Below are positions 31,565 through 34,624 of a stretch of 64,000 nt of DNA, piece by piece; the first letter of the stretch is position 1; every line of letters starts with the position of its first letter. Under the pieces are notes generated by a model that did no database searches, was not told the origin of the DNA, and saw only the letters and a list, made by a program, of their open reading frames with translations. Made by a program: the position numbers and the translations under genes. Source of the DNA: a virus. Location of the stretch: IMG/VR virus record IMGVR_UViG_3300017942_000001. One strand, 5' to 3'.

Positions 31565-31930
31565 GTCTCGGCTCAGTGGAGCGCCGAGCGGCTCTCGCTA
31601 ATTTCGCAGTCTCGAACCAGTAGTCTCGGCTCGTGGAGCGCCGAGCAACTCTCGCCACAGCCCGCGGTTCTGCCATGAGGTCTCGGCTCGTGGAGCGCCG
31701 AGCAGCTCTCGCTACCTTGAAGGAGCGGTCCGCGGATCGCGGATCGCGGCGGTCTCGACATCTCGGCTCGTGGAGCGCCGAGCAGCTCTCGCGCGCTCGC
31801 GCGCTCTCACTGATCTATTGAATTCCTCCATGTCTCAGCTCAATAGAGTGCCGAGCAACTCTGGCGCAGTCGCCGCGGGCCGCGGGTTGTGCGCATCTCG
31901 GCTCGTAGAGCGCCGAGCAGCTCTCGATCA
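31565..31930 (-). CRISPR. degenerate trailer segment of the array (6 repeats)
   Basis: Repeats at 31565, 31623, 31680, 31760, 31832, 31895 with substitutions; spacers 21-44 nt; further remnants near 31430-31480. Confidence 0.85.
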
Positions 31931-32251
31931 TCCGCGGGGCTGCGGGCTGCGCCGTTTTTTTCGTCGTGCCTCCGAAGCTTTGGTCTCGAGCTTGCGCGCG
32001 ACCGACGCGGCGAACCGCGAGCCATCCTCGTCACCGACGAGCTTGAGCAGATGCGTCAGGTTGTCGATCAGCTCCATCGCGTCCGTGAACAACGCCGCGT
32101 CGTCGTATCGCGACAGCTGCATCTGGAGAAAAAGTTTTCGCGCGCGGGCAGCGTGCCAATTGGGCGGAGAAGCTGGCAGCCGGCCGAGTAGTAGATACTC
32201 CGAGTCTTTCATCAGGCGCTCGGCTTGGCGTCGCGTGCTCGCGTACTTCAT
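31928..32251 (-). CDS. hypothetical 107-aa protein inserted in the CRISPR array
   Basis: ORF fills most of a 391-nt gap between repeats; TATAAA 7 nt upstream of ATG; lower GC. Confidence 0.55.
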   Translation of the reverse strand: MKYASTRRQAERLMKDSEYLLLGRLPASPPNWHAARARKLFLQMQLSRYDDAALFTDAMELIDNLTHLLKLVGDEDGSRFAASVARKLETKASEARRKKRRSPQPRG

Positions 32252-32321
32252 GTGTGCGTTTATACAATGGGGCCGGCTGTTGGCTGACCGTCGGCGAGCG
32301 GTGAGTACGTTTACGTCTAAG

Positions 32322-34624
32322 GTCTCGGCTCGTGGAGCGCCGAGCAGCTCTCGCCTCTCGTCGTAGAGCGTGTGAAGAAGTGCATCTCGGCTCGTGGAGC
32401 GCCGAGCAGCTCTTGTTACGATGCGTAAGGCGCAAGATGCGTAGGCCCGATGAGATCCTGCACGTACGGTCTCGACTCATAGAGCGCCGAGCAGCTCTCG
32501 CTACCTTCTGTCCGCTCTTCACGCTTCACGCTTCATGATGCGTCGCGCGTCGTGCTTCGTCTCGGCTCGTGGAGCGCCGAGTAGCTTTCGCTGCACCGCC
32601 AACGAATTCCAACGAACGGCCAACGTGTTTGTCTCGGCTCGTGGAGCGCCGAGCAGCTCTCGCCATTGGATTCTCGGCGCCGCTCAGTCTCGGCTCGTAG
32701 ATCGCCGAGCAGCTATTAGTTATCACGATCACGTCGATCGTTGATTCCAACGATCCCCCTGTGTCTCGGCTCGTGGAGCGCCGAGCCGCTCTCGCTACTT
32801 TTGCACCATTCGCGATTCGCGCGGGAGAGCTTGAGAAGGTCGTCTCGGCTCGTGGAGCGCCGAGCAGCTCTCGCGACCGAAGGTCGGGATGCGCATGTCT
32901 CGGCTCGTGGAGCGCCGAGCAACTCTCGCTACCGGCATTGTGCATGTAGCAGCCGTAGCCGTTGGGCCGTTGGCAACGCTCATTGTCGTGAGCGGTCTCG
33001 GCTCGTGGAGCGCCGAGCAGCTCTCGCTACGCCCGCGCGGACGTGCGCGGCGGCGGCCGTGGTATGGTGCGCGCCGGATTTCTCGACTTGCGTTGCTGGC
33101 CGTCTCGGCTCATGGAGCGCCGAGCAGCTCTCGCTACCAGCTACCAGCTACCGGGGAGTCCCTGACCTTGTAGTCGCGTCCGTGCACGACGTCTCGGCTC
33201 GTGGAGCGCCGAGCAGCTCTCACCACCATTCCTTCCGTCATAAGTGCGGATCGTAGACGCACGGTCTCGGCTCGTGGAGCGCCGAGCAGCTCTCGCTACC
33301 CTGAGGTCCGAGGTCGCACGGCTGGTACCTCCGACGCCGAAGTCTCGGCTCGTGGAGCGCCGAGCAGCTCTCGCTACCTTATGGATCGTGACAAGCTCTA
33401 TTCCGTACCCGATCTGTCTCGGCTCGTGGAGCGCCGAGCAGCTCTCGCTACGCAAGCCGCTGCCAAGCCCGCATTCGAGTTCCTTTCTCGGCTCGTGGAG
33501 CGCCGAGCAGCTCTCACTACCGTACGTCAAGGGTGTCGCGGCGCTGTGGCACCTGGGTCTCGGCTCGTGGAGCGCCGAGCAGCTCTCGCCACGGGCGCAT
33601 CGCCGCTCGCCGCTCGCCGTCGGCGAACCTTCGCCGTCTCGGCTCGTGGAGCGCCGAGCAGCTCTCGCTACGGCCGCGCTCCGCGCTCGAGATCAAGAGG
33701 GGTGATCTCCACCGGTCTCGGCTCGTGGAGCGCCGAGCAGCTCTCGCTACGGTTGCGTGCGCAAACTCGACGGGCGTTGGGTGCCACGGTCTCGGCTCGT
33801 GGAGCGCCGAGCAGCTCTCGCCACCGTCGTCCTGGAGTCCTGGAGGGGCTTGACGCCCCTGTCCAGGGTCTCGGCTCGTAGAGCGCCAGCCGCTCTCGCT
33901 ACGTTCTGCTTCGTTTTCTTGCGCCTTACCGAGTCGTGGTCTCGGCTCGTGGAGCGCCGAGCAGCTCTCGCTACGTCACGTCGTCACGTCGCGGAACAGC
34001 TCGCGACCGGGCAGGAAGTGGTCTCGGCTCGTGGAGTGCCGAGCAGCTCTCGCTACATCGTGATCGATCTCGACGTGCCGCTCAAGGAAGCCAAGTCTCG
34101 GCTCGTGGAGCGCCGAGCAGCTCTCGCTACGCGATCGTCGCCACGCTCGCGCCGTACGCCGTACGAGGACCCCGTCTCGGCTCGTGGAGCGCCGAGCAGC
34201 TCTTGCTACTCGCTACTCGCTACCGACAGCGCGGTAGCAGCGAACCGAAAGCGCGACGCAGTCTCGGCTCGTGGAGCGCCGAGCAGCTCTCGCTATGGTC
34301 TCTAACAGCACGCCAGCACAACCGGTGTGTGCACGACGAGCGCAAGCAACGCGAAGCTTGAGTCTCGGCTCGTGGAGCGCCGAGCAGCTCTCGCCACAGC
34401 GCCACAGGATGATGCCGGGCCCGTTCGCCAGGCGCTGTGGAGAGTCTCGGCTCGTGGAGCGCCGAGCAGCTCTCGCTACGCCAGCAGCGCTCGCGCCGGC
34501 TACGCTTACGTCATGGTCTCGGCTCGTGGAGCGCCGAGCAGCTCTCGCCACGCGACTGGATAGACGTAGAGGCCGACGAAGTCGGCGTGTCTCGGCTCAT
34601 GGAGCGCCGAGCAGCTCTCGCTAC
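32322..34624 (-). CRISPR. type V CRISPR array, 30 repeats; consensus on minus strand GTAGCGAGAGCTGCTCGGCGCTCCACGAGCCGAGAC
   Basis: 36-nt repeats from 32322 to 34589; 3' CTCGGC/GCCGAG hairpin ending in AC as in type V repeats; degeneration increases away from the effector; spacers 19-71 nt. Confidence 0.97.

What the first reader, a model, noticed from the sequence alone, without database searches (positions are those of the whole stretch)
31716..34443. Recurrent 7-8-nt tandem duplications inside CRISPR spacers, outside the predicted seed
Seen: about 14 of 35 spacers carry a short direct tandem duplication. Examples: ATTCGCG x2 (32808-32821), CGCGCTC x2 (33675-33688), GTCCTGGA x2 (33829-33844), GTCACGTC x2 (33975-33990), CGCCGTA x2 (34150-34163), TCGCTAC x2 added after a repeat (34210-34223). 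Several spacers are 43 nt and return to 35-36 nt when one copy is removed. Removal also restores plausible reading frames (34131-34173 becomes AIVATLAPYEDP with all third positions G/C; 33825-33867 becomes VVLEGLDAPVQ), so the duplications look secondary. With minus-strand transcription, each leaves about 17 nt or more next to the repeat handle (PAM-proximal) intact. Inference: a fixed-length mutational process (staggered cut plus fill-in/end-joining, aberrant Cas1-Cas2 integration in trans, or polymerase slippage) filtered by selection for guide function. I know of no description of this pattern.
Basis: partly seen in the sequence, partly recalled or inferred. Interest (0 to 1): 0.85.

Follow-up and report, generated by a model that had tools for sequence, protein, structure and literature searches.

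The report
Short duplications scarring old phage CRISPR spacers
In a phage-borne Cas12m CRISPR array that no longer gains spacers, many spacers have picked up 7-8-base tandem duplications, but only beyond the first ~17 bases that the guide RNA needs. The old array is therefore still under selection, and it records an unexplained fixed-length mutation process.

Summary
The 3.1-kb array (31566-34624, read on the minus strand from a Cas12m gene at 34662-36575) holds 15 exact tandem runs of period 7 (10) or 8 (5). Periods 9-15 are absent. The other 60.9 kb of the window holds such runs only at chance level.

The duplications are secondary:
- Four cross the repeat/spacer junction.
- Removing them returns spacers to 35-38 nt.
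- Removing them raises codon periodicity (P about 0.004).
- Sister arrays with regular spacers have none.
- In a related 56-spacer array they occur only in the older half (Fisher p = 0.002).
- In that array one spacer occurs twice, once without and once with a 7-nt duplication.

Pooled over about six related array sets (254 units): period 7, 24 observed against 0.7 expected; period 8, 11 against 0.2; period 9, 4 against 0.06; period 10 or more, none.

No duplication leaves fewer than 16-17 intact guide bases, and the shortest spacers are 17-20 nt. This matches the published 17-bp Cas12m heteroduplex, so selection on guide function is the likely filter.

Cas1-Cas2 integration, duplicated protospacers, assembly error and cutting by the phage's own Cas12m (N-D-D RuvC) are disfavoured. 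What sets the 7-8-nt length is unresolved. An earlier report of this scan noted erosion of phage Cas12m arrays on other DNA.

The parts
34662..36575 (-). cas12m gene (637 aa), type V-M effector with an N301-D478-D579 RuvC triad
   Evidence: PDB sequence search gives Cas12m 23vw_A at E=1.4e-70. The alignment with 10 relatives shows Asn in ALNLGW, then VVDD and WDQDQN. Pfam gives a weak Cas12f1-like TNB hit.
34625..34661 (-). Leader between the cas12m stop codon and the first repeat; AT-richer and similar in L002 and L004
   Evidence: Read directly from the sequences.
31566..34624 (-). CRISPR array of about 35 copies of a 36-nt repeat with spacers of 19-71 nt. Repeats are intact at the cas12m side and degenerate at the far side.
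31931..32321 (-). 391-nt non-repeat insert inside the array, holding a 107-aa ORF (31928-32251)
   Evidence: no Pfam or PHROG hit
34392..34407 (.). 8-nt unit x2.0 spanning 6 nt of the repeat end plus 2 nt of spacer (46-nt spacer becomes 38)
34205..34223 (.). 7-nt unit x2.7 made of the repeat's terminal 7 nt copied into the spacer (51 becomes 37)
34150..34165 (.). 7-nt unit x2.3 that leaves exactly 17 guide-proximal nt intact (43 becomes 36)
33974..33991 (.). 8-nt unit x2.25 starting at the last base of the repeat (46 becomes 38)
33829..33845 (.). 8-nt unit x2.1 (43 becomes 35)
33674..33688 (.). 7-nt unit x2.1 (43 becomes 36)
33600..33619 (.). 7-nt unit x2.9 (43 becomes 36 if one copy is removed)
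33133..33152 (.). 7-nt unit x2.9 spanning the repeat end and the spacer (53 becomes 39)
32951..32973 (.). Overlapping 6-nt x2 and 8-nt x2 runs in one 62-nt spacer
32808..32821 (.). 7-nt unit x2.0 (43 becomes 36)
32517..32535 (.). 7-nt unit x2.7 (54-nt spacer); also present in an independent contig of run X1
31937..31951 (.). 7-nt unit x2.1 beside the 391-nt insert; identical in runs X1, X2 and X3
31872..31886 (.). 7-nt unit x2.1; identical in runs X1, X2 and X3
31788..31806 (.). 8-nt unit x2.4 starting inside a degenerate repeat end; identical in runs X1, X2 and X3
31731..31749 (.). 7-nt unit x2.7 (44-nt spacer); present in a contig of run X1

Best explanation
This is a phage-encoded type V-M (Cas12m) CRISPR array with no adaptation genes found nearby, and it has stopped taking up new spacers. 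Spacers entered at the normal 35-38 nt. Over evolutionary time the array DNA then acquired de novo head-to-tail duplications of 7-8 nt (range 6-9), and also deletions. Cas12m pairs only about 17 guide bases with its target. Changes within the first 16-17 nt of a spacer, or in the repeat core, are therefore removed by selection. Changes in the dispensable 3' part of the spacer and the first bases of the next repeat are neutral and persist. Those steps are shown or strongly supported. The origin of the fixed length is inferred. My preferred reading is error-prone repair of closely spaced nicks on opposite strands, or of a short 5'-staggered break. The overhang would be filled in and rejoined with 0-3 nt of microhomology. 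Such breaks are plausible in heavily transcribed, R-loop-prone array DNA. Existing two-copy tracts would then occasionally expand to three or four copies by slippage. The phage's own Cas12m is not the nuclease.
For: Identity: Cas12m by PDB sequence match; the array and gene lie on the same strand with a conserved leader; no Cas1, Cas2 or Cas4 in 30 ORFs scanned. Enrichment and length specificity. Secondary origin has five supports. (1) Runs cross the repeat/spacer junction. (2) De-duplicated lengths cluster at 35-38 nt. (3) Codon phase is restored at P about 0.004 against removal at random positions. (4) There are no period 7-9 runs in regular spacers of L002, the first array of L004, L006, L008, L015 and L017 units 1-28, against 9 of 27 older L017 units (Fisher p=0.0018). 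(5) The L017 spacer at 12656 recurs at 15552 with one extra 7-nt copy and no other change. Selection floor: the intact 5' prefix is never below 16 nt in 39 events, P=7e-5 against uniform placement, and the shortest spacers are 17, 17, 18, 18, 19 and 20 nt. Cas12m2 forms a 17-bp heteroduplex (PMC10442227). Not the own effector: N-D-D triad, and N-D-D Cas12m proteins do not cut dsDNA (PMC11013384). Break-repair reading: most events have 0-1 nt of flanking microhomology, there is no sequence motif at a fixed offset, and overlapping or adjacent events occur in single spacers. Precedents: repeat-independent de novo tandem duplications at hotspots in E. coli topA R168C, and the paired-nick repair cited there (PMC6954433).
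Against: No nuclease or nicking activity with a 7-8-nt stagger has been identified. The topA precedent gives 2-19 bp, not a narrow peak. About a third of events have 3 nt or more of flanking microhomology, more than a simulated null, which fits slippage as well. The age gradient assumes that spacers nearest the leader are the youngest. The floor at 16-17 nt could partly be mechanistic rather than selective. No protospacer was found, so no spacer of this window has a direct ancestor for comparison. Whether the process is specific to arrays or is genome-wide and only visible in neutral DNA cannot be told. Out-of-frame duplications would be purged from the coding rest of the phage.
Confidence: 0.55

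Rival explanations
1. Replication slippage or template switching without any break. The nascent strand end realigns 7-8 nt back on short microhomology. The narrow length would reflect the geometry of the phage or host polymerase, and selection filters the events as above.
For: Events with 3 nt or more of microhomology are over-represented (12 of 39 against about 8% in the simulated null). The one verified ancestor/derivative pair had a 3-nt microhomology spaced 7 nt apart. Runs of three to four copies look like slippage expansion. In-frame 9- and 12-nt tandem duplications are enriched in the coding part of the window, and a 12-nt duplication polymorphism separates L004 from L010.
Against: Twenty-two of 39 events have only 0-1 nt of microhomology. 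Slippage normally gives a broad length spectrum set by local repeats, not a peak at 7-8 with nothing at 10 or above. Units of 7 and 8 nt occur at the same site.
Confidence: 0.25
2. Array-specific mutagenesis caused by the system itself. R-loops of pre-crRNA, or transient binding of the nuclease-dead Cas12m-crRNA roadblock to its own spacer DNA, stall replication and provoke direct-repeat insertions just beyond the 17-bp heteroduplex.
For: Nuclease-dead dCas9 R-loops are mutagenic and produce multi-nucleotide insertions that create direct repeats at the target (PMC6411842). Cas12m acts as a tight roadblock to transcription and replication (PMC11013384). Period 7-8 runs show no excess outside the array. 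There is a mild pile-up of events at an intact prefix of 16-19 nt.
Against: Self-binding should be prevented because the repeat end offers no T- or C-rich PAM (sequence; PAM types). Events are spread up to 25-30 nt beyond position 17 and into the next repeat. Regular arrays next to the same kind of effector show no duplications.
Confidence: 0.1
3. The duplications are made when the spacer is integrated, by aberrant Cas1-Cas2 action in trans or by faulty gap filling.
For: Some duplications touch the repeat/spacer junction formed at integration.
Against: None occurs in about 120 regular, recently acquired spacers of sister arrays or in the young half of L017. One spacer exists with and without the duplication. 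Events lie anywhere in the distal spacer, not only at junctions. A mis-set integration ruler would give dispersed copies, not tandem ones (inference from the known integration mechanism).
Confidence: 0.03
4. Footprints of a transposable element that makes 7-8-bp target duplications and later excises, leaving both copies.
For: The length is fixed, there is no microhomology and there is no sequence motif. Seven to nine bp is a common target-duplication size (own knowledge).
Against: No transposase was found in the window or the loci. No insertion was caught in place in any of about 250 spacer units. Excision that keeps both copies is unusual in bacteria (own knowledge).
Confidence: 0.03
5. The duplications were already present in the protospacers, or are assembly artefacts.
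For: No protospacers are known, so this is not directly excluded for internal events.
Against: Runs cross into the repeat. Length and codon phase are restored on removal. The L017 pair shows both states. Identical forms appear in independent assemblies: X1-X3, and the ENA locus L004 against the JGI loci L011 and L014. The tracts are shorter than assembler k-mers.
Confidence: 0.02

Closest known systems
Type V-M CRISPR-Cas12m (MmCas12m/Cas12m2, GoCas12m; PMC10442227, PMC11013384)
   Same: The effector is homologous. The RuvC triad is non-canonical (N-D-D). The repeat is 36 nt. No adaptation genes lie next to the locus. Published work shows DNA binding without cleavage and a 17-bp guide-target heteroduplex, which matches the 16-17-nt floor seen here.
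   Different: This locus is carried by a phage-like, 69% GC contig. The array is old and irregular (spacers 19-71 nt), with a mutational pattern not reported for the characterised bacterial systems.
Phage-encoded Cas12m locus of myxophage MV-1 (bioRxiv 10.64898/2026.09.14.751636)
   Same: A Cas12m gene lies beside an array in a high-GC phage. There is no cas1, cas2 or cas4, and no protospacers were found.
   Different: The MV-1 array has 8 spacers and its Cas12m keeps D-E-D. No spacer duplications or erosion are described there.
De novo short tandem duplications in E. coli topoisomerase I R168C mutants (PMC6954433), and paired-nick repair duplications in plants as cited there
   Same: Head-to-tail duplications arise from non-repeated sequence, independently of existing repeats, at hotspots with recurrent events.
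   Different: Lengths there are 2-19 bp rather than a peak at 7-8. The effect is genome-wide in a laboratory mutator. No link to CRISPR arrays is known, and no topoisomerase defect is shown here.
Mutagenesis by nuclease-dead dCas9 R-loops in yeast (PMC6411842)
   Same: A DNA-binding-only RNA-guided effector induces local insertions that create direct repeats at its target.
   Different: Those are artificial targets with a PAM. Here the array itself lacks a PAM for its own guides, so self-binding is not expected.
Ordinary decay of CRISPR arrays at the trailer end and spacer loss by recombination between repeats (e.g. SpacerPlacer, PMC11472070)
   Same: Older units are more degenerate. Whole repeat-spacer units are duplicated or lost (L014, L017).
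   Different: The known dynamics concern whole units and point changes in repeats. They do not include fixed-length duplications inside spacers bounded by the guide length.

Membership tests
Type V-M CRISPR-Cas (Cas12m) | Effector homologous to characterised Cas12m proteins over its full length | tested here: met
   23vw_A Cas12m at E=1.4e-70 over residues 6-588; 23vu_A UnCas12m4a at 3.4e-14
Type V-M CRISPR-Cas (Cas12m) | RuvC site of a class that binds but does not cut dsDNA (D-E-D, H-D-D or N-D-D in tested members) | tested here: met
   N301, D478 and D579 by alignment. The class was shown to be cleavage-deficient in PMC11013384. The activity of this protein itself was not assayed.
Type V-M CRISPR-Cas (Cas12m) | CRISPR array of about 36-nt repeats adjacent to the effector and on the same strand | tested here: met
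Type V-M CRISPR-Cas (Cas12m) | No cas1, cas2 or cas4 in the locus | tested here: inconclusive
   No such Pfam hit in 30 ORFs of the window. The whole contig or genome was not available.
Type V-M CRISPR-Cas (Cas12m) | Guide function limited to about 17 nt of the spacer | tested here: met
   Indirect evidence only. No duplication leaves fewer than 16 intact nt (P=7e-5), and the shortest spacers are 17-20 nt. This compares with the 17-bp heteroduplex.
Aberrant or off-target Cas1-Cas2 integration products | The duplication arises together with spacer insertion and flanks the inserted DNA | tested here: not met
   The copies are tandem, are absent from young spacers and are added to an existing spacer.
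Replication-slippage duplications | The duplicated unit is bounded by pre-existing short direct repeats | tested here: inconclusive
   Flanking microhomology (nt: events) is 0:8, 1:14, 2:4, 3:5 and 5 or more:8. The simulated null is 53%, 28%, 12% and 5% for 0, 1, 2 and 3 nt.
Staggered-break or paired-nick fill-in duplications | Fixed length equal to the stagger, little or no microhomology, and an identified nicking or cutting activity | tested here: inconclusive
   The length peak at 7-8 and the low microhomology are met. No enzyme was identified, and there is no motif at a fixed offset.

The most novel reading that the evidence does not exclude
CRISPR arrays of these adaptation-less phage Cas12m systems are subject to a dedicated, array-specific process. 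It could be R-loop or roadblock mutagenesis by the nuclease-dead effector or its transcript, or an unrecognised nicking activity with a 7-8-bp stagger. This process continually remodels the non-guide part of spacers. The duplications would then be the footprint of an undescribed enzyme-DNA interaction at CRISPR arrays rather than of generic replication error.
Probability: 0.15. Interest if true: 0.8.

Novelty: new variant of a known kind. Interest (0 to 1): 0.6.

Why it matters
The pattern matters for four reasons.

- It shows that spacers in phage-borne Cas12m arrays without adaptation genes are kept for long periods under purifying selection. These arrays are therefore working tools of the phage rather than relics.
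- It gives a natural 'mutagenesis map' of the guide. The boundary at 16-17 nt, recovered purely from sequence evolution, agrees with the 17-bp heteroduplex seen by cryo-EM in a distant Cas12m.
- It exposes a mutation class with an unusually narrow length (7-8 bp, little microhomology). Its source is unknown, and it could be studied experimentally with a plasmid-borne array.
- Such irregular arrays are likely to be missed or mis-parsed by CRISPR finders that expect uniform spacer lengths.

Tried and rejected
- The whole genome is not held, and the record behind L002 is not searchable. I could not look for Cas1-Cas2, Ku/LigD or topoisomerases genome-wide.
- The search for related loci in genome contigs found no relative. 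Two repeat patterns in viral contigs found nothing.
- The window's spacers share no spacer with the related loci L001-L004. One 17-nt match between the window spacer at 31716-31759 and an L017 spacer has unrelated flanks and is about what chance allows.
- No protospacer was found in the phage or plasmid collections.
- No RNA run was listed, so the mature crRNA length and the transcription direction rest on gene order, the conserved leader and the repeat-decay gradient.
- I looked for a PAM- or TAM-like motif or an A/T enrichment at a fixed distance from the duplications. The profile is flat, at or below 0.2 bit per position. This argues against a T-rich-PAM Cas12/TnpB-type cutter or a site-specific nuclease.
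- Neighbouring ORFs, including the 107-aa ORF inside the array, have no informative Pfam or PHROG hits.
- Cutting by the locus's own Cas12m was considered and rejected because of the N-D-D RuvC triad.
- Enrichment of duplications at the repeat boundary, as would be expected from stalled recombination junctions, was not seen. About 11 of 30 events fall in the boundary zone, as a uniform spread would give (my own tally).
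Full report
**What is there.** The window (69% GC) carries a 36-nt direct repeat in about 35 copies between 31566 and 34624. 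Spacers range from 19 to 71 nt. Immediately to the right, on the minus strand and pointing at the array, lies a 637-aa gene (34662-36575). Its product matches solved Cas12m structures (23vw_A, E=1.4e-70). Repeats are intact next to this gene and degenerate at the far end. The 37-nt stretch between the stop codon and the first repeat is similar in two relatives. The array is therefore most likely read on the minus strand, so each guide starts at the right-hand end of a spacer in window coordinates.

Alignment with ten relatives and with the solved protein places Asn, Asp and Asp at the three RuvC positions (N301, D478, D579). Bigelyte et al. showed that Cas12m proteins with D-E-D, H-D-D and N-D-D triads all bind but do not cut dsDNA (PMC11013384). 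None of 30 ORFs scanned in the window is Cas1, Cas2 or Cas4. Almost none has any Pfam hit, apart from an intein-bearing RtcB. Relatives of the effector sit on contigs of 200 kb and more. A 2026 preprint reports a Cas12m locus in a myxophage. The setting is a phage-borne type V-M system without an adaptation module, as another note of this scan also concluded.

**The observation.** Counting maximal exact tandem runs of at least two copies, the array holds:

| Period (nt) | Runs in array |
|---|---|
| 5 | 1 |
| 6 | 2 |
| 7 | 10 |
| 8 | 5 |
| 9-15 | 0 |

The remaining 60.8 kb of the window holds 10 and 4 runs of periods 7 and 8. Block shuffles that keep local composition or codons give 6.5-7.2 and 1.6-1.9. 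The excess is therefore confined to the array and to two lengths. Thirteen of 32 parsed spacer units are affected. Logan contigs of three wetland metagenome runs from three studies are identical to the window over 31763-32350. One of them also covers 31686-31789 and 32385-32660. Together they include five of the duplications. The middle of the array was not covered and no raw reads were on offer. The tracts are shorter than assembler k-mers, however, and the same phenomenon appears in assemblies from JGI and ENA (below).

**The duplications are secondary.** Six lines of evidence agree:

- Four runs cross the boundary between repeat and spacer (31788, 33133, 34205, 34392), and a fifth (33974) begins at the last base of the repeat. 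The four cannot have come in with the protospacer.
- After removing the extra copies, 13 of 25 affected spacers in a first pooled set fall at 35-39 nt, the normal length in this family.
- Regular spacers of this family show codon periodicity (0.333 against 0.228 +/- 0.013 in shuffles). They mostly derive from coding DNA of GC-rich genomes. Removing the duplications raises periodicity more than removing the same number of bases at random positions (0.124 against 0.078 +/- 0.018, P about 0.004).
- Arrays of close relatives are perfectly regular and have no period 7-9 run. These are L002, the first array of L004, L006, L008 and L015.
- L017 has a 56-spacer array beside a Cas12m 56% identical to ours, with a different repeat. 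Its 27 parsed units nearest the gene are regular and clean. Nine of its 27 older units carry period 7 or 8 duplications (Fisher p=0.0018).
- In that same array the spacer at 12656 (36 nt) recurs at 15552 with exactly one extra 7-nt copy and no other change.

The duplications therefore accumulate after acquisition, with array age. The window's array carries them everywhere except in its two newest spacers, so it is old throughout.

**Generality and length spectrum.** I pooled 254 distinct spacer units (10.2 kb) from the window and from nine related loci, which represent about six independent array sets. Observed counts against counts from shuffled spacers are:

| Period (nt) | Observed | Expected from shuffles |
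|---|---|---|
| 5 | 16 | 10.6 |
| 6 | 5 | 2.5 |
| 7 | 24 | 0.67 |
| 8 | 11 | 0.21 |
| 9 | 4 | 0.06 |
| 10-14 | 0 | about 0 |

A fourth wetland run holds a related array with other spacers. The flanking contig ends shown for it also contain 7- and 8-nt tandem copies next to the repeat end. The narrow peak is thus a property of this phage lineage's arrays and not of one contig.

**Where they are allowed.** Read in guide orientation, the stretch that remains identical to the presumed original from the 5' end of the spacer is never shorter than 16 nt in 39 events. Seven events sit at 16-18. The probability of seeing none below 16 under uniform placement is 7e-5. The shortest spacers in all these arrays are 17, 17, 18, 18, 19 and 20 nt, apart from one 12-nt remnant in a terminal decayed unit. 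Cryo-EM of Cas12m2 showed a 17-bp guide-target heteroduplex, with bases 18-20 of the guide left unpaired (PMC10442227). The simplest reading is purifying selection. Any change within the 17 nt that pair with the target, or in the repeat core, is lost. The distal half of the spacer and the first bases of the next repeat are free to vary. Beyond position 17 the events are spread roughly evenly up to and across the next repeat boundary.

An earlier report of this scan, on other DNA, described a phage Cas12m array 'whittled down by deletions and duplications' with only the guide-relevant parts kept. The present data agree with it and add the length peak, the age gradient and the 17-nt floor.

**What makes them.** This part is inference.

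*Integration errors* are excluded by the age gradient and by the paired spacer.

*Cutting by the locus's own effector* is unlikely given the N-D-D site.

*A guide-dependent or site-specific nuclease* would be expected to leave a motif at a fixed distance. The profile around the 39 events is flat.

*Flanking microhomology* is small. It is 0 or 1 nt in 22 of 39 events. Values of 3 nt or more are still commoner than in a simulated null.

*Multiple events per spacer* are frequent. Several spacers carry two overlapping or adjacent events, or units of 7 and 8 nt at the same site. Five window runs have nearly three copies.

This mixture fits two steps. The first is a de novo step that needs little homology. 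The second is slippage expansion of the new repeat. For the first step I favour repair of closely spaced nicks on opposite strands, or of a short 5'-staggered break, by fill-in and rejoining. A bacterial precedent exists for repeat-independent de novo tandem duplications at hotspots. It is the E. coli topoisomerase I R168C mutator, whose authors point to single-strand breaks and to paired-nick repair in plants (PMC6954433). Its length range is 2-19 bp, however, not a narrow peak.

Pure polymerase slippage remains a serious rival. A more speculative, array-specific source is R-loop or roadblock mutagenesis. Nuclease-dead dCas9 induces insertions that create direct repeats at its targets (PMC6411842).

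I could not tell whether the process is confined to arrays. Out-of-frame duplications would be purged from the coding bulk of the phage. In-frame 9- and 12-nt tandem duplications are enriched there (10 against about 1; 4 against 0.05). A 12-nt duplication polymorphism separates two near-identical relatives.

**Comparison with what is known, and novelty.** The locus passes the tests I could apply for type V-M membership. Phage carriage of Cas12m has just been reported. Full-text searches for Cas12m and for tandem duplications within spacers returned no description of this pattern. Known array dynamics concern whole repeat-spacer units and repeat decay. I therefore class it as a new variant of a known kind. 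The system is ordinary for its type. What is new is an undescribed, reproducible mutational signature together with a selection boundary that independently recovers the functional guide length.

**Verdict.** The mechanism that sets the length remains open.

Noticed in passing
window 31928-32321: A 391-nt non-repeat segment with an intact 107-aa ORF on the array strand interrupts the array. It has no Pfam or PHROG hit. The segment is identical in contigs of three independent wetland runs.
   Followed up: partly
L004:6960-6995 and L017:12950-12985: The same 36-nt spacer (one mismatch) sits in arrays whose repeats differ and whose Cas12m proteins are only distantly alike. This means either repeated acquisition of one protospacer in the same register or exchange of array segments between phages.
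   Followed up: no
L017:13964-14105; L014:1537-1680 compared with L004: Whole repeat-spacer units are duplicated in tandem, and L014 has one unit more than the otherwise identical array in L004. In L017 and L012 single spacers recur at distant positions. Recombination within arrays is frequent.
   Followed up: partly
L004:7240-8760: Downstream of a regular array lie decayed arrays in the opposite orientation and then again in the forward one. They have broken repeats and further 7-8-nt tandem runs, one of them inside a repeat.
   Followed up: partly
window outside 31500-34700; L004:2395: In-frame tandem duplications of 9 and 12 nt are strongly over-represented in the coding part of the window (10 against about 1; 4 against 0.05). 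A 12-nt tandem duplication is one of five differences between L004 and L010.
   Followed up: partly
related arrays L002, L004, L006, L008: Regular spacers show clear three-base GC periodicity and 66% GC. The targets are mostly protein-coding DNA of GC-rich organisms or phages. No protospacer was found in the phage or plasmid collections.
   Followed up: partly
L004:6304-6341 and L008:506-541: One shared spacer is 38 nt in one array and 36 nt in the other. The difference is two G at the guide-distal junction with the repeat, a small indel in the same tolerated zone.
   Followed up: no
window 54374-56680: RtcB RNA ligase interrupted by a Hint/homing-endonuclease intein (Pfam RtcB 1e-115, Hom_end_hint 1e-10). 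This confirms another first-stage note.
   Followed up: partly
window 36576-37481 (minus strand): The cas12m reading frame stays open for about 300 codons upstream of the likely ATG. A database entry calls a 670-aa product. The start at 36575 is supported by alignment with relatives.
   Followed up: partly
run X4, loose ends at window 32501, 32714 and the joint 33373/32467: A fourth wetland sample holds an array with the same repeat but other spacers. The contig ends shown also contain 7- and 8-nt tandem copies next to the repeat end.
   Followed up: no
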